From contig CALVOG010000003.1 of NCBI GenBank assembly GCA_944350265.1, forward strand, positions 25,341 through 89,340: a DNA stretch of 64,000 nt, read 5' to 3'. The stretch is from an uncultured Clostridia bacterium (GTDB lineage Bacteria > Bacillota > Clostridia > Christensenellales > UBA1242). The notes beneath the pieces are model-generated. The model was not told the DNA's origin. It did not search any database and worked only from the letters and a program-made list of their open reading frames with translations. A program made the translations under genes and the position numbers. Each line of letters begins with the position of its first letter. Positions within the stretch are counted from its first letter, which is position 1. Below are positions 77-63,335 of this stretch, piece by piece.

Positions 77-152
77 TGGTCGGGGTGGAGGGTCTCGAAC
101 CCCCGACCTCACGGTCCCAAACCGCGCGCTCTACCAACTGAGCCACACCCCG
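77..152 (-). tRNA. tRNA-Pro(TGG)
   Basis: CGGGGTGTGGCTCAGTTGGTAGAGCGCGCGGTTTGGGACCGTGAGGTCGGGGGTTCGAGACCCTCCACCCCGACCA: complete cloverleaf with encoded CCA. Confidence 0.97.
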
Positions 153-277: not shown

Positions 278-1006
278 TTAACCGTCCATAAGTTTCTTGC
301 GCAAGGTTTCCAAAATTTTATTTTCAAGGCGAGACACTTGCACCTGCGACACGCCAAGTTCCTTGGCAATTTCGCTTTGAGTTTTGTCGTTAAAATAGCG
401 CATAAGGATGATTTTTTTATCTCTGTCGTCAAGTTTTTCAATCACCTCTTTGAGGGCGATATTTTCGATAAAACTCACCCCACCCGTTTCGCCGTCATAG
501 CGGTCAACCATCGTCAGTCCTTCCTCTTCTCCGTCGTCGAACGGCGCGAAAAGCGACACCGGCATCTTGCCAGAATCCATCACCATCACAACCTCTTGCT
601 CGGTCAGCGAAAACGCCTTTGCAATCTCTAAAATCGTGGGCGTTCGATTATTTATCACAAAAAAATCGTCTAAAAATTTGTTGATTTTTAAATTTAAAGT
701 TTTAATGGCGCGCGAAACCTTCACCGCTCCGTCATCACGCATAAAGCGCTTAATCTCTCCCACCACCATCGGCACAGCATAGGTGGAAAATTTGACGTTA
801 TATGAAAGGTCGAAGTGGTTTATCGCCTTCAAAAAGCCCATACAACCGAGTTGATAGAGGTCGTCATTCTCAACACCCTTCCCTCTAAACCACTTAATCA
901 CACTTTTAATAAGCGGTGAATTTTCCTTAACGAGGCGCTCTTTGGCGTCCAAATTTCCGCTTTGCGCCTCTTTGATAAGCGCCAACGTTTCCTCTTGGCT
1001 TAACAT
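278..1006 (-). CDS. sigF: Forespore sigma factor F
   Basis: DDLYQLGCMGFLKAI, KFSTYAVPMVVGEIKRFMRDDG and TQSEIAKELGVSQVQVSRLE motifs; third gene of the spoIIA operon. Confidence 0.95.
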   Translation of the reverse strand: MLSQEETLALIKEAQSGNLDAKERLVKENSPLIKSVIKWFRGKGVENDDLYQLGCMGFLKAINHFDLSYNVKFSTYAVPMVVGEIKRFMRDDGAVKVSRAIKTLNLKINKFLDDFFVINNRTPTILEIAKAFSLTEQEVVMVMDSGKMPVSLFAPFDDGEEEGLTMVDRYDGETGGVSFIENIALKEVIEKLDDRDKKIILMRYFNDKTQSEIAKELGVSQVQVSRLENKILETLRKKLMDG

Positions 1007-1446
1007 CCAACCTCGCTCATTGCGTTCACAATTTTTTTCGTCATTTTGACGGTTGTGCCGAAGGAGTTTGAGGTGACCTCAACGTCGTCCATAAAACTTT
1101 CCATCACGGTGAAGCCCATACCAGAGCGCTCCTCGCTTGGCTTTGAGGTGTAAAAAGGTTCGCGCGCCTTTTCAACGTCCTTTATTCCCACGCCTTTATC
1201 TCTAATAGTAATGGAAATTAAATCATTTTCAAGTTCGCATCGAAGGGTGATATCGCCCTTCACTTGCCCGGGATATGCGTGCACCACACAGTTTGTCACT
1301 GCCTCACTCACCGCAGTTTTAATGTCGGTTATCTCGTCCACAGACGGATTGAGTTGCACACAAAACGACGCCACGCAAACTCTGGCAAAGCCCTCATTCA
1401 CCGAAAGCGCCTTAAATGTGACTTCCATAAAATTTGAATATTTCAT
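1000..1446 (-). CDS. spoIIAB: Anti-sigma F factor / kinase SpoIIAB
   Basis: NEGFARV, IKTAVSEAVTNCVVHAY and ERSGMGFTVMESFMD motifs (HATPase fold). Confidence 0.97.
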   Translation of the reverse strand: MKYSNFMEVTFKALSVNEGFARVCVASFCVQLNPSVDEITDIKTAVSEAVTNCVVHAYPGQVKGDITLRCELENDLISITIRDKGVGIKDVEKAREPFYTSKPSEERSGMGFTVMESFMDDVEVTSNSFGTTVKMTKKIVNAMSEVGC

Positions 1447-9739: not shown

Positions 9740-9850
9740 ATGCTGAAAGTTAACCGCAAACTTTGAATTTAACTCACGCACACTCTTTCCGCTTAGTTTT
9801 TGCGTTTTTTCAAAAAAACTGACTGAAATTTAATAGGTTTTTAAAAAATT

Positions 9851-9910
9851 TTTAAACAATATTTTTGACTTTTTAACAATATTTTTGACTTTTTAACAAT
9901 ATTTTCAACC
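9851..9910. repeat. 20-bp tandem repeat, three copies
   Basis: TTTTAACAATATTTTTGACT units. Confidence 0.8.
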
Positions 9911-9966
9911 TTTTAAATAAAAAAATGTGAAATTAAAATGTTATTTTCACATTTTAAAATCACATC

Positions 9967-23544: not shown

Positions 23545-24264
23545 ATGAAAAGATTGGACACTTTTTTATTCGAAAATAACTTCTATGCCTCCCGCGAAAA
23601 GGCGAAGGAGGCTATCATTTCCGCTCGCGTCAAAGTGGATGGCAAGGTGATAACCAAGCCCGCGTTCTCGGTGGGCAAAAATGCGCAAATTGAGGCACTG
23701 CCCTTTAAATTTGTGTCACGCGGAGGGTTCAAACTGCAAAAAGCGCTTGAGGAATTTAAGGTTGACCTAAAAGGGAAAGTGGTTGTCGATATTGGTGCGT
23801 CCACGGGCGGATTTACCGATGTTTGCCTAAAAAATGGTGCGAAAAAGGTGTATGCGATTGACACTGGCACTAACCAACTTGCCGAAAGTTTAAGAAAGGA
23901 CGAAAGGGTGAAGAGCCTTGAAAGCACAAATTATCTAACTTTCGATAAATCCCACTTCCCTGATGCCGACATTGCCGTTATTGATGTTTCTTTTGTCAGC
24001 CTAACCAAATTTGCCGAAAAACTTGCCAACGATTTTGACGAGTTCATCGCCCTCATCAAACCTCAATTTGAGTGCGGGAAGGACTACGCCAAAAAGCACA
24101 AAGGCGTTGTAAAAGAGGAAAAAATGCACGAAAAAATCTTAAAAGATGTCACCTTCGCTTTTACCGCTGTTGGATTTAGCCTTTCGCCAATCATACCCTC
24201 GCCCATACTTGGTGGCGACGGCAACAAAGAATTTCTCTTGCACGGCAAAAAAAGTAAAAAATAG
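23545..24264 (+). CDS. tlyA: TlyA-family rRNA methyltransferase
   Basis: S4 domain; FVSRGGFKL, DIGASTGGFTD, DVSFVSL, LIKPQFE and GNKEFL motifs. Confidence 0.95.
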   Translation: MKRLDTFLFENNFYASREKAKEAIISARVKVDGKVITKPAFSVGKNAQIEALPFKFVSRGGFKLQKALEEFKVDLKGKVVVDIGASTGGFTDVCLKNGAKKVYAIDTGTNQLAESLRKDERVKSLESTNYLTFDKSHFPDADIAVIDVSFVSLTKFAEKLANDFDEFIALIKPQFECGKDYAKKHKGVVKEEKMHEKILKDVTFAFTAVGFSLSPIIPSPILGGDGNKEFLLHGKKSKK

Positions 24265-24574
24265 GAAAATTCCTATTTTTACTTCGAAAAATTCACGCTT
24301 TTACTTTATAATTTTATGGTTAATAATTTTTTGCTTTGCAATTTTATGATTAGCAATTTTTTGTTTTGCAATATAACTTTGTAAAATTTCCTGCATTCGC
24401 ATTAAGCAACACATCAAACTCTCGTTATGCGCAACAAATTACGTTTTAATTCTAGCGCTTAATTTTGCACAATTTATTAGCACGGATTTAATTTTTTCAA
24501 TTTTGCCATTTAGTTATTAGCCCACGCAACGGTTCAATTTTAGCGCATTATCGAATATTTGCGCTAAATTTTTC

Positions 24575-26478
<1,904 letters not shown>

Positions 26479-26525
26479 AAAATTATATTAAAAAGAAGAA
26501 TTATATGTGCAAGATAAACGCCCCA

Positions 26526-26615
26526 CTTTTCACCGTGCAAACATCGAATCCATCCTCTTTTCACCGTGTAAACATCGAATCCATCCTCTTTTCACCGCGC
26601 GAATACATCCTCTTT
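26526..26615. repeat. 31-bp tandem repeat, about 2.5 copies
   Basis: CTTTTCACCGTGYAAACATCGAATCCATCCT. Confidence 0.8.
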
Positions 26616-33716: not shown

Positions 33717-34019
33717 TCAAATTTGTTTTTCTTTCCTTTGGGCAATGAAGTTATGATACTGAGATTTATACTCCTCGCCAAATCTCGCCGTCATAAACCT
33801 CACCCAAAGAATACTGATTCCGTTTTCGTTGTTGTGCCCATCCACATTATTTCCCTTAACCTCGAAGTCCATAAGTGTGTAGGAAAATATTATTCCGCAC
33901 GCCTCTTCGTCGATATAGATTCTGTCACCTATCGCTTCGTATTTTGGGAAATTTTTAACGCCATAGGTTTTTGTGAAGAAGTTTTTAACCTCCTCTTCTT
34001 TTAAGGACTCAACAAACAT
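33717..34019 (-). CDS. Orphan protein inserted in the str operon (DF...FMxxxFGxxY type)
   Basis: 100-aa ORF whose stop codon abuts the fusA RBS; similar to the upstream orphan. Confidence 0.7.
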
Positions 34020-34066: not shown

Positions 34067-34660
34067 TTATTTGGTTTTGATGCCGTTATTTTCCATAAGG
34101 GCTTTAAACTTTATCGAAAACTTTTCGTATTCGTCGCAATAAGTCTTCCCAAATTTTTTTGACATTTCATTGATGTAAGCATTTTGCGAAGCCTCTTGTT
34201 GTTTCCATTCCTCTTTGCTTATATCAAATCGTATGTTTTTGTTTGAATCAAAACTTATCACTGGAAAATCTTTGGCAATTAGACCTCTATTCATTTTGAA
34301 CGGACGACTTAATAAAAGATTGGTAAAATTTAAATCAAAATCACTTATTGTTATATAGCCTATTTTTCGTGGCTCGGAAGCCTCTTCGCCTATTTTGACA
34401 ATTTTTAAGTGTATAAAATTTCCATTTTTGTAATCTACTTTTTTTATACTGCCATCAACCTTTTTATATTCATAGTCCAAAATTTCATAAAACATACTAT
34501 TTTGCCAATCGCTTGGATAATTCATAATTGTCGATTGTCTTGCAATACTAACAATTTCTTCGTCATCCAAGAGAGACAAATAACGACTATTATTCAGCGG
34601 ATTTTTCAAGCATTCTCTCTTCACATTTTCAGTGTAGCCCTTCATCAATTTACTGCGCAT
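34067..34660 (-). CDS. Orphan protein inserted in the str operon (DF...MxxxFGxxY type)
   Basis: 197-aa AT-rich ORF starting 6 nt after the rpsG stop. Confidence 0.7.
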   Translation of the reverse strand: MRSKLMKGYTENVKRECLKNPLNNSRYLSLLDDEEIVSIARQSTIMNYPSDWQNSMFYEILDYEYKKVDGSIKKVDYKNGNFIHLKIVKIGEEASEPRKIGYITISDFDLNFTNLLLSRPFKMNRGLIAKDFPVISFDSNKNIRFDISKEEWKQQEASQNAYINEMSKKFGKTYCDEYEKFSIKFKALMENNGIKTK

Positions 34661-35887: not shown

Positions 35888-35916
35888 ATTATACACATAC
35901 GCCTTGCCATTGTCAA
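35888..35916 (-). promoter_or_regulatory. SigA promoter of the str operon
   Basis: TTGACA-17-TATAAT about 270 nt upstream of rpsL. Confidence 0.8.
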
Positions 35917-36159: not shown

Positions 36160-37158
36160 TTAAACCTTTTCTAGTCGGGCTTGTTCCAGTCTCTTTCTAT
36201 ACTTTTCCTTCTTCTTTAAATATTTTGCATACAAATCATTGACGTTTTCGAGGTTGCCTTTAAGTTCTGCAAGCGCTTCCCACACAGCGGTTTCGCTATG
36301 CCCTAGCCTTGTTGCGATTTCCCGCCCTCTAAGAGTTGGATTCTCAAATGAACACGTTGCAATCTCGCGCTTAACCAATGACATATCGCGCGTGAGGTAG
36401 TCAAACAGAAATTCCCGCCCGCAATGTTTTTCCACTAAGCCGTAAAGCCTCTCTCTTTTCTCGCTTCGACTCACCGTCAGCAGGTTAAAATTCGCCATTT
36501 CAAGTAAACTTTCTGGCGAGGTGCCATTTTCAAACAAAAACTGCACACAACGCGTTGCATCTTTAAGCATCAGCCTTGCATACTCTTTCGTGCATCCAAA
36601 GCTCTGTGCGATTTGCGAGAGTGGCTTGTCCAAATAATAATGTTCAGCAAACACCCTCGCCTGCTTTTTTGGAAGATGTGGCAAGATTTTTTCCTTGATA
36701 AACCTTAACTCCAAATTCGCATCGGCTTGCTCGTTATCAATTTTAAGTATCTCACCAAATTCCTTCGAATTTTCGTCTAAATCGCCCAAACTTTCCACCT
36801 TGTATGGGCAAACATCCTTCATAAAGTGGGTGCTTTTTCTAAAAATGGCAATGCCAAGATAGGTGGAAAAAGAGGTGGACATATTCAAATCGAAGCCCTC
36901 AATCGCTTTCATAACCGTTTCGTAATAACTCTCAAGTAAATCCTCTTTCGACGGAAAATAAACGCCGTTATCTCTTAAATTACCCTCGCAAACGCCAAGC
37001 ACAAGTTTTTTAACAAGCCTAAGATTGCCCGCAAAAATTTTATCCCTAATCTTTTTGTCTTTCGTTTCCTTATAGAGTTTCAACAGCCTCAAATTTTCTT
37101 CTTTTGAGAGTGCTGGTGGCAACTTTCTCCAAAGGTTATATCTATGTAATATTTCCAT
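36160..37158 (-). CDS. Sigma-70-family (SigE/SigK-like) protein with one extra C-terminal HTH
   Basis: LPPALSKEEN..GNLRLV..EDLLE..AIEGFD..SFSTY; region 4 LSQIAQSFGCTKEYAR; second HTH RGREIATRLGHSETAV. Confidence 0.8.
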   Translation of the reverse strand: MEILHRYNLWRKLPPALSKEENLRLLKLYKETKDKKIRDKIFAGNLRLVKKLVLGVCEGNLRDNGVYFPSKEDLLESYYETVMKAIEGFDLNMSTSFSTYLGIAIFRKSTHFMKDVCPYKVESLGDLDENSKEFGEILKIDNEQADANLELRFIKEKILPHLPKKQARVFAEHYYLDKPLSQIAQSFGCTKEYARLMLKDATRCVQFLFENGTSPESLLEMANFNLLTVSRSEKRERLYGLVEKHCGREFLFDYLTRDMSLVKREIATCSFENPTLRGREIATRLGHSETAVWEALAELKGNLENVNDLYAKYLKKKEKYRKRLEQARLEKV

Positions 37159-37161
37159 CTT

Positions 37162-38433
37162 TCACCCCTCTTCTTTCTCGCGTTCACCTAAAATTTTTGA
37201 ATGGATGGTGTTTTCACGTTCTTTTTCCAAATATTTTTTAAGACGCGCAATTCGGTGAGAATACTCAGTTTCGCATAACCCGCACTTTTTGGCAAGTTCT
37301 CTTTGCGTTTCGCCGTTATAGCCCAAAATTCCATATTCTAGCACCAAAGCGTTTCGCTTATCCTTCAAGTTTGGCAAGAAGTAGTGTCTTAGAGCCTCCT
37401 CACCACCCACGCTCGCCACAAATTTTTTCATCTTTTCCACCTTCCCCAAACTCTTTTTCTTCTTTTCAACCACAATTTTCTCTTTGGAAGGTTCTTCACC
37501 ACGAAGATATTTTTCATAATATATATCGCCATACTTTTCAAGTTTAAAATAGACATCTCTTAAACTCGACGTGGTGTTGTTGTTCTTTTCGTTAAGTTCG
37601 CGCGCTATATCAACAAGTTTTCCTCTTTCTTCGGCGAGAATTGCGCGTTCAAAGATAAATCTTTGCCTGTCGGTCAAGGTGTGAACAAAATACTTTTCAA
37701 AAAAATCTCTGCCATATTTTTCAATATCGAATTTCTCACGCCAATGGATGCTATATTTGGGAGTTTCAGTCGCAACATCATTAAGTTCGCCCGTTTCAAA
37801 GAGGTTTTTGGTGTGGAATTTTGCCATTTTCAGTCTCTTTCGAACGGCCTCGCGCGAACAGTTTTTCTCATTAGCGATTTTTTGCAAGGTCTTATTCTTA
37901 AAAAAGTAGTCAACAAAAACTTGCCTTTCCGCCTCTGGCAACTTTGGCAAAATTTCCTTCTTAATAATCTCCACCGCCACCTTATCTTCATAGTTAAGAT
38001 AGTCAAAGTCGAAAAGCATAGCTAAAAATGTGCTTCTTTCGTCCTCGTCCATAGGCGCATCCAAACTTTGCGTCACGTGAACAGAAGAGTCTTCGCCCAC
38101 AACAAATCGGCTTATTGAGTTTTTCACTGCTGTGCTTAAATAGGAAGAAAAGGAGGTGCCTAGTTCTGCGTTAAAAAGGTCGATTGCGCGAAGAAGCGCC
38201 CACGCGCCCTCTTCAAGTAGGTCCTCATTTTCTGGGTAAATTGGGCTTTGATAGTGAAGAAATTTTTTGCAGTAACGCGTCACGCACATACAAACAAAAC
38301 GGAGATTGCCATCAAAAATCCTTTCGCGCAAATTTTCATCGCGCGATTTTGAATATTCACGTAATAACCTTAAATTTTCCTCTTTTGAGAGCGCTGGTGG
38401 CAAAGACTCCCAAAAGTCCAATCTATTTTTCAT
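37162..38433 (-). CDS. Sigma-70-family (SigE/SigK-like) protein with two extra C-terminal HTHs
   Basis: LPPALSKEEN..GNLRFV..EDLLEEG..AIDLFN..SFSSY..SLDAPM; HTHs TLQKIANEKNCSREAVR, LVDIARELN and TQRELAKKCG. Confidence 0.8.
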   Translation of the reverse strand: MKNRLDFWESLPPALSKEENLRLLREYSKSRDENLRERIFDGNLRFVCMCVTRYCKKFLHYQSPIYPENEDLLEEGAWALLRAIDLFNAELGTSFSSYLSTAVKNSISRFVVGEDSSVHVTQSLDAPMDEDERSTFLAMLFDFDYLNYEDKVAVEIIKKEILPKLPEAERQVFVDYFFKNKTLQKIANEKNCSREAVRKRLKMAKFHTKNLFETGELNDVATETPKYSIHWREKFDIEKYGRDFFEKYFVHTLTDRQRFIFERAILAEERGKLVDIARELNEKNNNTTSSLRDVYFKLEKYGDIYYEKYLRGEEPSKEKIVVEKKKKSLGKVEKMKKFVASVGGEEALRHYFLPNLKDKRNALVLEYGILGYNGETQRELAKKCGLCETEYSHRIARLKKYLEKERENTIHSKILGEREKEEG

Positions 38434-38451
38434 ATTTCCTCTTCAAGAAGG

Positions 38452-38480
38452 ATTTTAGCACACCCTCCTCGCTTTGTCAA
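38452..38480 (-). promoter_or_regulatory. SigA promoter (extended -10) of the sigma-like pair
   Basis: TTGACA-17-TGc TAAAAT; GAGGA RBS follows. Confidence 0.8.
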
Positions 38481-38539
38481 TATGCCATTTCAGTTTTCTT
38501 GCCGAAACTAAGTGACGCTGTCACATTTTAAGGTCCACC

Positions 38540-39778
38540 TCACACCCTCTCGCAGATGGAGGCGGAAAGTGATGGTTTTATAACACGCGCCTTCACAATT
38601 TCGCCAACGTGACAACCGCCGACGAATGCGCACTTAATGTAGTTTTTGCTATACCCAAAAAACACGCCGTTCTTTTCCTCTTCAATCAAAACTTCCAAAA
38701 TGTCGTTTTGGGCGATAAAGTCAATTTTATCTTTCTTCCTTATCTCAGCAAGCACTTTTGCGCGCTCTTCTTTAACGCTTTTTGGCAAATCTTTAAACAT
38801 TTTCGACGCCACAGTACCTTTTCGGTTGGAGTATGGGAAAATATGTAAGTCTGAAAAGCCGATTTTTTTAATAAAGTTGACGGTTTCAGTGAAATTTTCC
38901 TCTGTTTCGGTTGGGAAACCCACGATGACGTCGGTGGTTATGCCCGCAAGCGGAAAGTATTTTCGAATCAAATTCACCGTGCGCTCAAAGTCTGCGGTTC
39001 GATACTTTCTGTTCATTTTCTTTAAAACTTCGTCACACCCGCTTTGCAAAGAAAGGTGGAAATGTGGACAAAAATTTTTGAGTTTTTTTAGGCGCCTAAC
39101 AAAATCTTCGCTTATCAAATTGTCCTCCATCGACGAAAGCCTGAGGCGAAATCCAAACCTGTCAAGCGCTTCCAAAAGGTCAATAAGTTTGGTGCCGTTT
39201 TTGTCGCAATACGAGGAAACATCAATCCCAACAAGCACCACTTCTTTAACGCTTTTTGGCAGTTTTTCAATCTCAACAATAACGCTCCTTGCCTCACGCG
39301 AACGGCTTCGCCCACGAAGGTATGGAATTATGCAATACGTGCAAAAATTGTTGCAACCATCTTGGATTTTGATAAACGCGCGCTCTTTGGTTTGGGCGCT
39401 AAAAAAGTCGTCCTCATATTCAAGCGGAAGGTCGTAAACTTTCTCGCCCTCGCTTAAAAGGTGGTCGATTATTTTCAGTTTTTCCGCCACGCCCTGCACG
39501 AACACCACTCCTTTTTTCTCAAATTGCGACGGACGATTTTGGCTTGCACAGCCCACAACATATATCTTTGCGCTCGGGTTAAATTTACGGCAACGTTCAA
39601 TCATTTGGCGTGATTTTCGCTCTGCTTCGTTCGTCACCGCGCAGGTGTTGATGATGTATGCGTCCGCCCATTCCAGCGCGTCAGTTGCCTCAAAGCCCTT
39701 TTTTTGCAAAGTAAAAATGAGAGCATCGCTCTCATACTTATTCACTTTGCAACCTAACGTTAAAACAGCTATTTTCAT
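38540..39778 (-). CDS. mtaB: tRNA ms2t6A methylthiotransferase MtaB
   Basis: TLGCKVNKYES, RAFIKIQDGCNNFCTYC and HFHLSLQSG motifs; follows rsmE. Confidence 0.95.
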   Translation of the reverse strand: MKIAVLTLGCKVNKYESDALIFTLQKKGFEATDALEWADAYIINTCAVTNEAERKSRQMIERCRKFNPSAKIYVVGCASQNRPSQFEKKGVVFVQGVAEKLKIIDHLLSEGEKVYDLPLEYEDDFFSAQTKERAFIKIQDGCNNFCTYCIIPYLRGRSRSREARSVIVEIEKLPKSVKEVVLVGIDVSSYCDKNGTKLIDLLEALDRFGFRLRLSSMEDNLISEDFVRRLKKLKNFCPHFHLSLQSGCDEVLKKMNRKYRTADFERTVNLIRKYFPLAGITTDVIVGFPTETEENFTETVNFIKKIGFSDLHIFPYSNRKGTVASKMFKDLPKSVKEERAKVLAEIRKKDKIDFIAQNDILEVLIEEEKNGVFFGYSKNYIKCAFVGGCHVGEIVKARVIKPSLSASICERV

Positions 39779-48789: not shown

Positions 48790-49143
48790 TTAATTCACAA
48801 AGCCAAGCGAGATAAGTATTGCGCGGTCAACCTCTTTCATCTTATAACCATCAATGTTAGCGATTTTCTCTTTAAGTCGTCGCTTATCAAGCGTTCGAAT
48901 TTGCTCCAAAAGCACCACGCTATCCTTTGGAAGATGATATTTTTGCGAAGAAAGTTCGATATGCGTTGGCAATTTCGCCTTGGAAAGTTTGCTTGTTATC
49001 GCGGAAACGATGACGGTTGGCGAATACTTGTTCCCAACATCGTTTTGTATGATAAGAACAGGGCGAACGCCACCTTGCTCGCTCCCAACAACGGGACTGA
49101 GGTCAGCAAAGTATATCTCTCCTCGCTTATAATTTTCCATCAT
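48790..49143 (-). CDS. mazF: MazF/PemK-family endoribonuclease (EndoA)
   Basis: [32 protein letters not shown]...[13 protein letters not shown]. Confidence 0.97.
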
Positions 49144-49366: not shown

Positions 49367-49425
49367 AATTCTCTCCTGTTTAGCAAAATTTAATACTTTT
49401 AGTGTGGAAAAATATTAAACTTTTA

Positions 49426-49625
49426 TTCTTTAATGCAAATCAAAATTTCCATTCTAATGTAGACTAAACCCCTCCGCTCTAATGTAAATCAAGATTTCTG
49501 CTCTAATGTAAAATAAACTTTTCTGCTCTTATGCAAACTAAACTCACTGCGCTATTGAAAACAAAATCTTCATCTTAATGTAAACTAAACCTTTCACGCT
49601 TTTGTAAACCAATCTTTTTGCAATT
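49426..49625. repeat. Degenerate 24-25-bp tandem array, about 8 copies
   Basis: Consensus approximately CTCTAATGTAAACTAAACYTTTCTG. Confidence 0.8.
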
Positions 49626-57284: not shown

Positions 57285-57797
57285 TTATTTATCTATACCA
57301 AAAAAAATTTCGAGCGCAACTCCCACCATAACACTAAACAAGCAAATGATGACTATAATTTTAGGGATTATAAATTTTGCCCGATTCGTTTTGATTGCCT
57401 CATCTCGCTTATACCTTGGAGTTGAAAAAAATGCTAAAACGGCGTAAACGATAACGCCAACGAAACTCCCAAGCATAAAGTATGGAATCTTGGTTGTCGC
57501 GCTGACAATCGTAAACGCCACACACAGCAAAAAACCTGCCATTGCACCCCAAAAACAAGATTTTGCCTTTTTGTCATCTAAAATTTTTCTATTCTCTAAA
57601 TCTTCATCACTAATTAGCGCATCAATTGAAACATCAAAAACTTTGCAAAGCATTTTAAGACTTTCCATATTTGGAAAACCTCTATCCGTCTCCCATTTTG
57701 AAATGGCTGTGCGCGTCACAAAAATTTTATCTGCAAGTTCGTCTTGCGTCAACTTGTTGCCTATTCTTAGTTTTTTAAGTTTTTCACCAAAAGTCAT
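57285..57797 (-). CDS. XRE-family HTH regulator with C-terminal transmembrane helices
   Basis: LTQDELADKIFVTRTAISKWETDRGFP followed by three hydrophobic segments. Confidence 0.9.
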   Translation of the reverse strand: MTFGEKLKKLRIGNKLTQDELADKIFVTRTAISKWETDRGFPNMESLKMLCKVFDVSIDALISDEDLENRKILDDKKAKSCFWGAMAGFLLCVAFTIVSATTKIPYFMLGSFVGVIVYAVLAFFSTPRYKRDEAIKTNRAKFIIPKIIVIICLFSVMVGVALEIFFGIDK

Positions 57798-58072: not shown

Positions 58073-58318
58073 AAAAAAGGAACTTGGTTTTTTAATTTCC
58101 TTTGCTTTTTCTCACTAATATCAAATTAACTTTTTTTACACGATTATAATATTTTTATCTTAATTTTAATATTTTTTAACCTTTTTTAATATTTTTGACT
58201 TAATTTTAATATTTTTTAACCTTTTTTAATATTTTCGACTTAATTTTTATATTTTTTTTACCTAATTTTAATGTTTTCAACTTGGTTTTATTATTTTAAA
58301 AAAAGGAACTTGGTTTTT
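58073..58318. repeat. AT-rich 40-bp (2 x 20) tandem repeat bracketed by 20-bp direct repeats
   Basis: 58161-58200 and 58201-58240 are near-identical; AAAAAAGGAACTTGGTTTTT at 58073 and 58299. Confidence 0.75.
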
Positions 58319-63108: not shown

Positions 63109-63335
63109 CTATTTGATAAGCTCATTTATTTTCAATATTCTTAATTTTTATATTTATTCTTAACTTGATGATGTGACATTTTCTTAGTTTTTAAAGATGC
63201 AATTTTTGTTAAAAATCTTGTTTTTATAAAAAATCTAATTGATTTTAATAAAAATTTTATTTTTCTTCAAAAAAATTGCTATTTTATCGAAAAATTGCTA
63301 CTTTTTATTAAAAAAATTACTATTTATTATCAAAT

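What the first reader, a model, noticed from the sequence alone, without database searches (positions are those of the whole stretch)
36160..38480. Tandem SigE/SigK-like sigma factors with extra sigma-4-like HTH modules
Seen: two adjacent paralogs, 3 nt apart, both starting W..LPPALSKEENLRLL..Y...D...R.(R/K)IF.GNLR.V. Each has a region 2 and a region 4. After region 4 the 423-aa protein carries two more modules and the 332-aa protein one. The modules share a leader (IEKYGRDFFEKYF / VASVGGEEALRHYF / VEKHCGREFLFDYL) followed by an HTH (LVDIARELN / QRELAKKCG / GREIATRLG). Known: the LPPPLS..EE start and short spacer to SLDxP are typical of sporulation SigE/SigK, which are about 240 aa and end after one region 4. 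The -10 recognition segments here (SSYLSTAVKNSI; STYLGIAIFRKS) differ from SigE/SigK and from each other. The pair has a near-consensus vegetative SigA promoter and no pro-peptide or adjacent anti-sigma gene. Inference: a lineage-specific class of multi-HTH sigma factors, reading extended upstream sites or sequestering RNA polymerase.
Basis: partly seen in the sequence, partly recalled or inferred. Interest (0 to 1): 0.85.

Follow-up and report, generated by a model that had tools for sequence, protein, structure and literature searches.

The report
Sigma factors with repeated region-4 domains
Two neighbouring genes of an uncultured gut Clostridia bacterium encode RNA-polymerase sigma factors whose last, promoter-binding domain has been copied one or two extra times (up to seven times in relatives), an unstudied architecture that may let them read unusually long promoters.

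Summary
Two ORFs on the minus strand (37162-38433, 423 aa; 36160-37158, 332 aa) lie 3 nt apart and are paralogs (32% identity, E 9e-43). Both have sigma-70 region 2 and region 4, followed by two and one extra ~80-aa modules.

The modules are diverged copies of the proteins' own sigma domain 4 (profile-profile probability 96.7%). They fold confidently as separate helical domains joined by flexible linkers, and they are under purifying selection (dN/dS 0.09-0.17).

The pair belongs to a small monophyletic family of sigma2-sigma4-(sigma4-like)n proteins with n = 1-7. I found it in 22 of 154 species genomes of one uncultured Clostridia genus, and in no other genus among the 401 genomes sampled from its order. 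It usually sits just upstream of rpsL, behind a conserved strong SigA-type promoter.

They resemble SigE/SigK only in N-terminal motif and layout. The genome has its own SigE, SigK, SigF and SigG.

Function is inferred, not shown. The most likely reading is a real alternative sigma factor whose extra domains contact DNA upstream of -35. A regulatory or protein-docking role for the modules is a serious rival. I found no paper on this architecture. I rate it a new variant of a known kind, of moderately high interest.

The parts
38452..38480 (-). SigA-type promoter-like site of the two-gene unit: TTGACA, 17-nt spacer with TG, TAAAAT. The -10 ends 18 nt before the ATG.
   Evidence: 11 of 12 matches, against 5.5 +/- 2.3 sites of >=9/12 expected per 4 kb; a like site at the same distance in 13 of 20 family genes examined.
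37162..38433 (-). Gene 1, 423 aa: sigma2 - linker - sigma4 - module M1 - module M2.
   Evidence: AlphaFold2 with a 35-row alignment, mean pLDDT 78.6.
38098..38406 (-). Gene 1, regions 1.2-2 (sigma domain 2), residues ~10-112.
   Evidence: Pfam Sigma70_r2 29.8 bits. pLDDT >90. VIA-align Z 13.8, rmsd 2.3 A over 106 residues to sigma-70 domain 2 in 7xya_F. dN/dS 0.04.
37789..37986 (-). Gene 1, genuine region 4 (sigma domain 4), residues ~150-215.
   Evidence: Pfam Sigma70_r4 46.5 bits at residues 162-203. pLDDT ~87.
37510..37749 (-). Gene 1, module M1 (residues 229-308): sigma4-like domain with the leader IEKYGRDFFEKYF.
   Evidence: pLDDT 80-90. Aligns with M1 of all family members. dN/dS 0.12. 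Net charge -2.
37204..37443 (-). Gene 1, module M2 (residues 331-410): sigma4-like domain with the leader VASVGGEEALRHYF.
   Evidence: pLDDT 81-89. Aligns with M2 of family members. dN/dS 0.17. Net charge +5.
36160..37158 (-). Gene 2, 332 aa: sigma2 - linker - sigma4 - one module. It starts 3 nt after the stop of gene 1.
36823..37125 (-). Gene 2, regions 1.2-2, residues ~12-112.
   Evidence: Aligned to gene 1. Pfam r2 is only 15.2 bits, below cut-off, but TIGR02937 spans residues 38-201 at 49.9 bits. dN/dS 0.06.
36544..36705 (-). Gene 2, genuine region 4, residues ~152-205.
   Evidence: Pfam Sigma70_r4_2 29.9 bits and Sigma70_r4 24.6 bits.
36220..36459 (-). Gene 2, single sigma4-like module (residues 234-313), leader VEKHCGREFLFDYL.
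   Evidence: Aligned with M1. dN/dS 0.09.

Best explanation
The two genes encode real alternative sigma factors of the sigma-70 family, with a SigE/SigK-like layout: region 1.2-2, a short linker without a folded domain 3, then region 4. Their last domain, sigma4, has been duplicated C-terminally into an ordered string of sigma4-derived helix-turn-helix domains. The window has two extra copies in one gene and one in the other; relatives have up to seven.

Shown here: the domain make-up, the origin of the modules from sigma4, their independent folding, the purifying selection on them, the family and its distribution, and the conserved SigA-type promoter.

Inferred: the sigma2-linker-sigma4 part binds RNA polymerase core as ordinary sigma factors do. 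Because the extra domains leave sigma4 at its C-terminal, upstream-facing end on flexible and partly basic linkers, they would lie along the DNA upstream of -35 and add contacts there. This would work like a built-in activator or UP-element reader, so promoters of these sigmas would extend far upstream.

My odds: about 0.9 that these are functional sigma2-sigma4-(sigma4-like)n proteins, about 0.65 that they still work with RNA polymerase core, and about 0.45 for the whole statement including upstream DNA reading by the modules.
For: Domain make-up:
- Pfam and NCBIfam sigma regions.
- Confident sigma2 fold: Z 13.8, rmsd 2.3 A.
- Family-wide conservation of the region 2.1-2.3 pattern GNLRLV / EDL.Q.G...L..AI..F / F.FSTYL, with D71 and F95 invariant in 35 of 35 rows. 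From established knowledge of sigma-70, recalled here, this is the core-binding and melting segment.
- The S of 'SLD' is conserved in the linker in >=90% of rows.

Modules derive from sigma4:
- hhalign 96.7%, E 4.1e-10, in register with LPxLxxxxRxxF.
- The best genuine PDB sequence matches of the 64-module profile are sigma4 of a sigma factor (8x6g_H, E 5.6e-6), FliA and GerE.
- In other genomes of the genus, the module profile weakly picks up region 4 of ordinary 240-254-aa sigma factors.

Modules are separate folded domains:
- pLDDT is 80-90 in each block and <50 in the linkers; pTM is 0.32.

Modules are functional:
- dN/dS is 0.12, 0.17 and 0.09.
- The modules are positionally orthologous (M1..M5) across 35 proteins.

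Compatible with DNA binding:
- Median net charge is +1 to +4 and pI 8.1-9.4 per module type.
- A conserved basic arm (NR..R) precedes the M2 leader.

Expression:
- A conserved strong SigA-type promoter lies 17-30 nt before the start in 13 of 20 family genes.
- Contigs of one metatranscriptome library (X20) lie on 36175-36905 with 2-7 differences each. This shows presence in an RNA library, not proof of transcription.
Against: - No experiment or computation here shows binding to core or to DNA.
- Within each module type the presumed recognition helix (profile positions 56-68) is the least conserved part, with column frequencies mostly 0.1-0.3. The leader and first helix (KYGG..FL..YFLP.L) are the most conserved part. 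That pattern fits a conserved protein contact or fold core at least as well as sequence-specific DNA reading.
- M1 of the 423-aa protein is acidic: net -2, pI 5.5.
- No single module passes any Pfam HTH cut-off. HTH_24 matches 3 of 11 modules and Sigma70_r4_2 matches 2 of 11, all sub-threshold.
- I identified no candidate target promoter with arrayed upstream sites.
- The structural match of the modules to sigma4 was not tested on a module-only model (warns of this).
Confidence: 0.45

Rival explanations
1. The extra sigma4-like domains are not DNA readers. They are regulatory or docking domains: sigma4 mimics that bind a protein partner (the beta-flap tip, an anti-sigma-like factor, an activator, or the protein's own sigma2/sigma4) and so gate or target an otherwise constitutively expressed sigma factor. 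This would be comparable in logic to the C-terminal extensions of some ECF sigma factors.
For: - The best conserved part of every module type is the leader plus first helix, not the recognition helix. In sigma4, the equivalent helices form the flap-tip and anti-sigma binding groove (recalled structural knowledge).
- The genes sit behind a strong SigA-type promoter in 13 of 20 cases, and there is no anti-sigma gene next to them. Control would therefore have to be post-transcriptional.
- Each module position has its own conserved signature, for example TDFE..V..DN after M2 and LYL.P.F in M3. This suggests distinct partners.
Against: - AlphaFold2 gives no docking of the modules on sigma2 or sigma4: pTM 0.32 and linkers with pLDDT <50.
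- Most module types are basic.
- No partner gene is conserved next to the family genes.
Confidence: 0.25
2. The proteins no longer act as sigma factors. They are multi-HTH DNA-binding, architectural or repressor-type proteins in which the sigma2 part is a relic or has a new role.
For: Arrays of the same kind of module occur without this sigma N-terminus in other metagenomic proteins. 42 of the 150 listed representatives have >=2 full modules and no such N-terminus, for example ~340-aa proteins made of four modules, though some of the 42 are fragments. Array function therefore need not depend on sigma2.
Against: - Sigma2 is the most constrained part: dN/dS 0.04-0.06, pLDDT >90, and invariant region 2.2/2.3 residues.
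- The sigma2-less ~340-aa type was not found in the 154 genomes of this genus with the query used.
- All 37 family representatives keep sigma2, the linker and sigma4.
Confidence: 0.1
3. They are the organism's SigE/SigK sporulation sigma factors, or recent copies of them, carrying a tail.
For: - The N-terminal LPPALSKEE motif and the SLD linker resemble SigE/SigK. The match to the SigK model is colinear.
- In genomes of the genus that lack the family, the best matches to the 423-aa protein include pro-sigma E/K-type genes.
Against: - Scores are 39-49 bits against cut-offs of 252-349.
- The genome has separate genes scoring 316 bits (SigE model) and 261 bits (SigK model), each with a pro-sequence.
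- The family is a separate clade, SH-aLRT 99.
- There is no pro-sequence.
Confidence: 0.03
4. Assembly or gene-calling artefact, or decaying pseudogenes of no function.
For: The source is a metagenome-assembled genome. The proteins are rare in databases: 4 hits.
Against: - The same pair occurs at 95% and 93% identity in another species genome.
- The stretch is held in chicken-gut metagenome runs of several studies.
- Intact ORFs of the family occur in 22 genomes of the genus.
- dN/dS is 0.10-0.12.
Confidence: 0.02

Closest known systems
Sporulation sigma factors SigE / SigK (group 3 sigma-70 family, Firmicutes)
   Same: The N-terminal motif is of the type (L/F)P.(P/A)LS.EE. The region 1.2-2 is shared, as is the short region 2 to region 4 spacer containing SL(D/x)xP with no clear domain 3. 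The alignment to the SigK model is colinear.
   Different: - No pro-sequence.
- Far below the family cut-offs.
- A separate clade.
- SigA-type promoter.
- 1-7 extra sigma4-like domains after region 4. SigE/SigK end after one region 4.
ECF sigma factors with C-terminal extensions (such as groups ECF41/ECF42; recalled. The reclassification paper PMC7826278 was seen only as a search listing)
   Same: A sigma2-sigma4 core with an appended C-terminal part and no adjacent anti-sigma gene. The extension is thought to modulate the sigma's own activity.
   Different: As far as I recall, those extensions are non-HTH folds (SnoaL-like, TPR, Cys-rich). Here the extension is iterated copies of sigma4 itself. 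The N-terminus here has a region 1.2 and a SigE/K-like motif, which is not ECF-like.
Stand-alone sigma4-type HTH proteins (GerE/LuxR C-terminal domain, YlxM/UPF0122)
   Same: The module profile matches GerE (1fse, E 0.0015) and a UPF0122 protein (1s7o, E 0.0026) in the PDB. The fold class is the same: a four-helix sigma4/LuxR-type HTH.
   Different: Those are single domains that act as dimers or with receiver domains. Here up to eight such domains stand in one chain, fused to sigma2.
Other multi-region-4 proteins in metagenomes (uncharacterised: P0141 with r2 plus three r4; P0069 with six r4 stretches; P0101)
   Same: Sigma-70 region 4 is repeated within one chain, sometimes behind a region 2.
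   Different: Those repeats still pass the Pfam Sigma70_r4 cut-off and lack the KYGG..FL..YF leader. They are not in the clade defined by the N-terminal profile at high score. Their origin is unknown and none is characterised. A survey of cyanobacterial sigma factors mentions 'non-canonical' core patterns with duplicated essential domains, without functional study (PMC11119718, passages read).
TFIIB/TFB cyclin-like repeats and the proposal that sigma itself arose by iteration of HTH units (PMC4581349 and PMC4802759; only listing and start of abstract seen)
   Same: An initiation factor built by repeating an HTH-bearing unit.
   Different: That is an ancient, hypothetical event. Here a recent, lineage-specific re-iteration of the last unit is directly visible.

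Membership tests
sigma-70 family (Pfam Sigma70_r2 + Sigma70_r4; NCBIfam TIGR02937) | Region 2 detectable above the curated cut-off | tested here: met
   423-aa protein: r2 29.8 bits against 24. 332-aa protein: Pfam r2 is only 15.2 bits, below cut-off, but TIGR02937 spanning regions 2-4 scores 49.9 against 42.9, and the protein aligns to gene 1 over region 2.
sigma-70 family (Pfam Sigma70_r2 + Sigma70_r4; NCBIfam TIGR02937) | Region 4 (HTH) detectable above the curated cut-off | tested here: met
   r4 46.5 bits (423 aa). r4_2 29.9 and r4 24.6 bits (332 aa). Cut-offs are 24.1 and 25.7.
sigma-70 family (Pfam Sigma70_r2 + Sigma70_r4; NCBIfam TIGR02937) | Binds RNA polymerase core and directs promoter-specific initiation | not testable with these tools
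   Supported only indirectly, by conservation of the region 2.1-2.3 pattern and the sigma2 fold.
SigK (TIGR02846 / NF004471) | Score at or above the curated cut-off | tested here: not met
   48.3 bits against 298.65 and 48.6 against 252 (423 aa). 17.2 and 23.8 bits (332 aa). The genome's own SigK-type ORF scores 260.8 against 252.
SigE (TIGR02835 / NF006158) | Score at or above the curated cut-off | tested here: not met
   38.8 bits against 348.6 and 41.8 against 339. The genome's own SigE-type ORF scores 316 and 297 bits.
SigE / SigK | N-terminal pro-sequence removed by a sporulation protease | tested here: not met
   The start is 10-12 residues before LPPALS, and there is no earlier start in the open frame. 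The own SigE/K-type ORFs carry 40-60 extra N-terminal residues.
SigE / SigK | Groups with SigE or SigK in a tree | tested here: not met
   35 family rows form their own clade, SH-aLRT 99. SigE-type, SigK-type and SigF/G-type rows are separate, and the sister group is unresolved (50 rows, 225 columns, quick search, no bootstrap).
Group 3 sigma factors with domain 3 | Region 3 (Pfam Sigma70_r3), a folded three-helix domain between regions 2 and 4 | tested here: inconclusive
   No Sigma70_r3 hit at E <= 1. Residues 113-150 have pLDDT 43-56 and only a 4-residue helix. A low-confidence stretch does not prove that a domain is absent.
Multi-sigma4 sigma family defined here (sigma2 - sigma4 - (sigma4-like)n) | N-terminal W..LP.AL..EE / GNLR region 2 profile plus at least one full module (leader KYGG..FL..YF plus HTH) after region 4 | tested here: met
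   Both window proteins meet it. So do 37 of the 150 best representatives of the 1.84-billion-protein search.
Multi-sigma4 sigma family defined here (sigma2 - sigma4 - (sigma4-like)n) | Position just upstream of rpsL | tested here: met
   Met in the window and in 14 of the 18 other genomes whose loci were fetched. Not met in 4 genomes (G063, G087, G079, G111).
MzaA (sigma-like protein of the MZA anti-phage system) | Match to the PADLOC / NCBIfam model | tested here: not met
   PADLOC MzaA scores 17.5 bits, E 2.3e-4, over region 2 only. There is no hit for the 332-aa protein or the 792-aa relative.

The most novel reading that the evidence does not exclude
A class of sigma factors in which sigma4 has been iterated up to eight times, so that one polypeptide is both sigma and its own array of upstream activators. 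Each extra domain would dock on a successive site upstream of -35, roughly one site per one to two helical turns. That would give promoters of 60-150 bp that are read by a single RNA polymerase subunit, with promoter length set by the number of modules.
Probability: 0.3. Interest if true: 0.8.

Novelty: new variant of a known kind. Interest (0 to 1): 0.62.

Why it matters
Sigma factors are taken to end with one domain 4 that reads the -35 element. Anything further upstream is read by the alpha subunits or by separate activators.

A naturally occurring family in which domain 4 is repeated 2-8 times, kept under selection and expressed from a strong housekeeping promoter, would give three things:
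- a visible case of how initiation factors grow by repeating an HTH unit;
- possibly a new way of building long, highly specific promoters with a single protein, which would be useful for orthogonal expression systems;
- a handle on gene regulation in a very small-genome (~1 Mb), uncultured gut Clostridia genus.

If instead the modules are regulatory sigma4 mimics, they would be a new type of built-in sigma control.

Tried and rejected
Structure prediction and fold search
- Single-sequence AlphaFold2 of the 423-aa protein failed (mean pLDDT 38.8). Only the alignment-based model was used.
- Foldseek and VIA-align on the whole model return sigma factors. They test residues 1-312 almost exclusively, so they say little about the fold of M2.

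Searches for relatives
- The search for homologous proteins with the 423-aa protein gave only its own species cluster, a fragment and two ordinary 257-aa sigma factors.
- The 'shorter' search gave only an 89-aa fragment. No close sigma-only form was found with these word-based searches, which is not proof of absence.

Phage or defence origin
- PHROG 351 (sigma factor) matches residues 10-225 at E 9e-32.
- tblastn against 50,697 phage records gives only 22-34% identity to ordinary phage sigma genes over <=47% of the query, and nothing on the modules.
- PADLOC gives nothing meaningful.
- Flanks are housekeeping genes.
- Rejected.

The sigma2-less four-module proteins (P0046 type) were not found in the 154 genomes of the genus with that query.

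Target sites
- A permissive TRF run shows several intergenic direct-repeat arrays in the window and many short ones in related loci. I could not link any of them to these genes, and they are listed only as things noticed.
- No motif discovery across genomes was done.

RNA evidence
- The metatranscriptome run X20 has no contig on 35644-36165 (intergenic) or on 36906-38912, which includes the whole 423-aa gene.
- With contigs, a part without cover shows nothing.
- X18 and X19 are labelled RNA-Seq but are probably DNA.

Rfam at gathering threshold finds only tRNA in the window.

Not done
- I did not use complex prediction, because I do not claim a specific protein-protein contact.
- Supplementary files of papers were not consulted (closed). 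They could hold domain-architecture tables that list multi-region-4 sigma factors, for example those of PMC11119718 or PMC7826278.


Full report
WHAT IS THERE

Two open reading frames lie head to tail on the minus strand: 37162..38433 (423 aa) and 36160..37158 (332 aa). Three bases separate the stop of the first from the ATG of the second. The ribosome-binding site of the second lies inside the end of the first, so they look like one transcription unit.

The unit is preceded by TTGACA-17-(TG)TAAAAT at 38480..38452, whose -10 ends 18 nt before the first ATG. Upstream lies a MiaB-like radical-SAM gene (38540..39778). Downstream lie a consensus promoter (35916..35888), rpsL, rpsG and fusA.

The two proteins are paralogs: 32% identity over 331 residues, E 9e-43.

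SIGMA PART

Both proteins carry sigma-70 region 2 and region 4 in their first ~215 residues.
- The 423-aa protein passes the Pfam cut-offs for both regions.
- The 332-aa protein passes for region 4 only (r2 15.2 bits against 24).
- Both pass the NCBIfam superfamily model TIGR02937.

An AlphaFold2 model made with a 35-row family alignment gives pLDDT >90 for residues 10-110 and about 87 for residues 150-215. Residues 1-115 superpose on sigma domain 2 of solved holoenzymes with Z 13.8 and rmsd 2.3 A over 106 residues.

No region 3 is detected. Residues 113-150 are of low confidence.

It is not right for membership:
- Scores are 39-49 bits against cut-offs of 252-349.
- There is no pro-sequence.
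- The same genome has separate ORFs that score 316 bits on the SigE model, 261 on SigK, 370 on SigG and 290 on SigF/G, plus a SigA.
- In a tree of 50 sigma2-sigma4 regions, the 35 family members form their own clade (SH-aLRT 99). The rows were those 35, plus 5 ORFs of the own genome, plus 10 ORFs picked from relatives' best hits. No SigH or ECF references were included. The search was quick, without bootstrap. The sister group is unresolved.

THE EXTRA MODULES

After region 4, the 423-aa protein has two further ~80-residue units (229-308 and 331-410) and the 332-aa protein has one (234-313).

A profile of 11 such units, from the window and two relatives, aligns to a profile of the proteins' own region 4 with hhalign probability 96.7%, E 4.1e-10. 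The alignment is in register with the LPxLxxxxRxxF helix and the helix-turn-helix.

A 64-unit profile searched against all PDB sequences finds, as its best genuine matches:
- region 4 of a sigma factor in a holoenzyme structure (8x6g_H, E 5.6e-6);
- FliA;
- GerE;
- a YlxM-type protein.
The formally best hit is a designed repeat protein matched only over 21 residues.

Taken one at a time, no module passes a Pfam cut-off, which is why annotation sees nothing there.

In the model each module is a confident helical block (pLDDT 80-90). The helix pattern mirrors that of region 4. The blocks are separated by linkers with pLDDT <50, and overall pTM is 0.32, like beads on a string.

So the modules are whole, diverged copies of sigma domain 4, each with an added, strongly conserved N-terminal 'KYGG..FL..YF' leader.

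THE FAMILY

Two genomes of the same genus first showed longer versions: 792 aa with five modules and 556 aa with three.

Within the genus, I scanned all 154 species genomes with the module profile.
- 137 genomes give some match at E <= 1e-3. Most of those are region 4 of ordinary 240-254-aa sigma factors.
- 21 genomes have matches at E <= 1e-10, and one more at 1.2e-8. These lie in intact ORFs of 333-901 codons carrying 1-6 modules after a genuine region 4.

Across the order, I sampled 401 genomes from 173 genera. Only the window's genus gave true hits. Two hits in another genus are 86-95-codon ORFs matched over the HTH only.

An exhaustive HMMER search of 1.84 billion cluster representatives gave 587 proteins at E <= 1e-3, 94 at <= 1e-10 and 34 at <= 1e-30. 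Of the 150 listed:
- 37 have this N-terminal sigma profile (E <= 1e-10) plus at least one full module. The module counts are 1 (5 proteins), 2 (5), 3 (3), 4 (9), 5 (13), 6 (1) and 7 (1).
- 5 have the sigma profile with region-4-like repeats that lack the leader.
- 42 have two or more full modules but no such N-terminus. Some of these are fragments, and some are other architectures, such as ~340-aa proteins made of four modules.

Pfam on ten diverse hits shows that repetition of region 4 also occurs elsewhere. One protein has region 2 plus three region-4 stretches, and another has six region-4 stretches.

In a full-length alignment of 35 members, the modules are positionally orthologous (M1 to M5, each with its own signature). 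The window's modules align with M1 and M2, and the 332-aa protein's module aligns with M1. The array is therefore old and ordered, not a recent slippage product.

The nearest relative of the window pair is in a record titled 'MAG: uncultured Clostridia bacterium', at 95% and 93% identity. The stretch is held by chicken-gut metagenome runs of several studies.

Source names for the proteins could not be obtained.

CONSTRAINT AND EXPRESSION

Against the 95%-identical relative, dN/dS is:

| Part | dN/dS |
|---|---|
| 423-aa gene, overall | 0.12 |
| sigma2 | 0.04 |
| sigma4 | 0.24 |
| M1 | 0.12 |
| M2 | 0.17 |
| 332-aa gene, overall | 0.10 |
| its module | 0.09 |

The counts behind these are small: 2-22 substitutions per class and region.

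A SigA-type promoter-like site (>=9 of 12 matches, 11 of the 13 with an upstream TG) ends 17-30 nt before the predicted start in 13 of the 20 first or single family genes examined. Several of those loci are close relatives of one another, and no shuffle control was run for this count.

Contigs of one metatranscriptome library lie on 36175-36905. That shows presence in an RNA library, not proof of transcription.

GENOMIC SETTING

In 14 of the 18 other genomes whose loci I fetched, the family gene lies directly upstream of rpsL, as in the window. Three genomes, counting the window's, have a tandem pair there: 423+332, 757+286 and 771+684 codons.

In five genomes of the genus without the family, the backbone is MiaB-like ... 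PcrA - LigA - [slot] - rpsL. The slot is:
- empty in two genomes;
- occupied by an unrelated 881-894-aa membrane-anchored protein without Pfam domains in two genomes;
- occupied by a 1599-aa GLUG-motif protein in one genome.

So the family occupies a variable slot beside the str operon. Four genomes carry members elsewhere. One of these is flanked by BspA-type leucine-rich-repeat proteins, and others are flanked by recF- or mnmE-type genes. No integrase or phage genes were seen.

HOW IT MAY WORK

The domain facts above are shown. The rest is inference.

The conserved region 2.1-2.3 pattern (D71 and F95 invariant in 35 of 35 rows), the conserved linker serine and an intact region 4 argue that these proteins still bind core RNA polymerase.

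In holoenzymes, region 4 sits on the beta flap at -35, with its C-terminus facing upstream (recalled structural knowledge). Domains appended there on flexible linkers would therefore lie along upstream DNA.

Evidence that fits extra DNA contacts:
- Module types are mostly basic, with median net charge +1 to +4.
- A basic NR..R arm precedes M2.

Evidence against it:
- The presumed recognition helices are the least conserved part of each module type, and the leader plus first helix are the most conserved.
- M1 of the 423-aa protein is acidic.
- No arrayed target sites were found.

The main rival is that the modules are sigma4 mimics used for protein docking or self-control of a constitutively expressed sigma factor.

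COMPARISON AND NOVELTY

Nearest known things:
- SigE/SigK, for the sigma part.
- ECF sigma factors with C-terminal extensions, for the logic of an appended regulatory tail (recalled).
- Single-domain sigma4/LuxR-type HTH proteins, for the module fold.

Four full-text searches found no paper on sigma factors with repeated region 4. One survey of cyanobacterial sigma factors mentions 'non-canonical' patterns with duplicated essential domains, without study (PMC11119718, passages read).

I file the pair as sigma-70 family members, not as SigE/SigK. I treat them as members of a new, narrowly distributed sub-architecture: a new variant of a known kind.

LIMITS

- No module-only structure was made.
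- There is no taxon name for the genus beyond 'uncultured Clostridia'.
- The search of earlier findings, the listing of cluster members and the protein atlas were unavailable.
- Supplements were not consulted.
- All functional statements are inference.

Noticed in passing
window 58143-58297; 49416-49595; also 9850-9916, 63245-63334, 26254-26597: Intergenic arrays of direct repeats: 20 bp x 7.7 copies (AT-rich, TTAATTTTAATATTTTT-like) and 24 bp x 7.4 copies (..GCTCTAATGTAAA..), plus shorter ones. The first lies upstream of an XRE-type HTH gene (57285-57797, -). The second lies upstream of a MazF/PemK-type gene (48790-49143, -). Their function is unknown and no link to the sigma genes was shown.
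   Followed up: partly
window 34067-34660 (-) and 33717-34019 (-): Two ORFs (197 and 100 aa) with no Pfam match sit between rpsG and fusA, inside what is normally a contiguous str operon. The 197-aa one has a 51%-identical counterpart at the same place in one relative, L072.
   Followed up: partly
window about 25000-26100: A GC-rich stretch (0.536 in 24001-26000, against ~0.40 elsewhere) made of 9/18/27/81-bp tandem repeats (GGACCAGTT-like). This is what a collagen-like Gly-X-Y repeat gene on the minus strand would give.
   Followed up: no
L088-L092 (five genomes of the genus), between ligA and rpsL: The slot that holds the sigma genes in the window is variable in the genus. It is empty in two genomes, holds an 881-894-aa membrane-anchored protein without Pfam domains in two, and a 1599-aa GLUG-motif protein in one.
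   Followed up: partly
proteins P0046-P0052, P0056, P0064 (about 340 aa); P0069; P0141; P0101: Metagenomic proteins of unknown origin made of four sigma4-like modules without any sigma2, or with six Pfam region-4 stretches, or with region 2 plus three region-4 stretches. The ~340-aa type was not found in this genus with that query.
   Followed up: partly
L012:745-1479 (+) and L012:1483-2193 (+), a genome of the same genus: A tandem pair of plain 245- and 237-aa sigma genes with an LP.(A/R)LS.EEE start, no pro-sequence and no modules. They score 93-99 bits on the SigK models, below cut-off, and sit on long branches outside the family clade.
   Followed up: partly
L069:11930-14596 (-) and L069:5962-8163 (-): In one genome where the family gene is not next to rpsL, it is flanked by two large BspA-type leucine-rich-repeat proteins, whose genes contain 69-bp tandem repeats.
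   Followed up: no
window 77-152 (-) and about 281-1078 (-): tRNA-Pro (TGG), and next to it the genome's SigF-type sigma gene, scoring 290 bits on the SigF/G subfamily model.
   Followed up: partly
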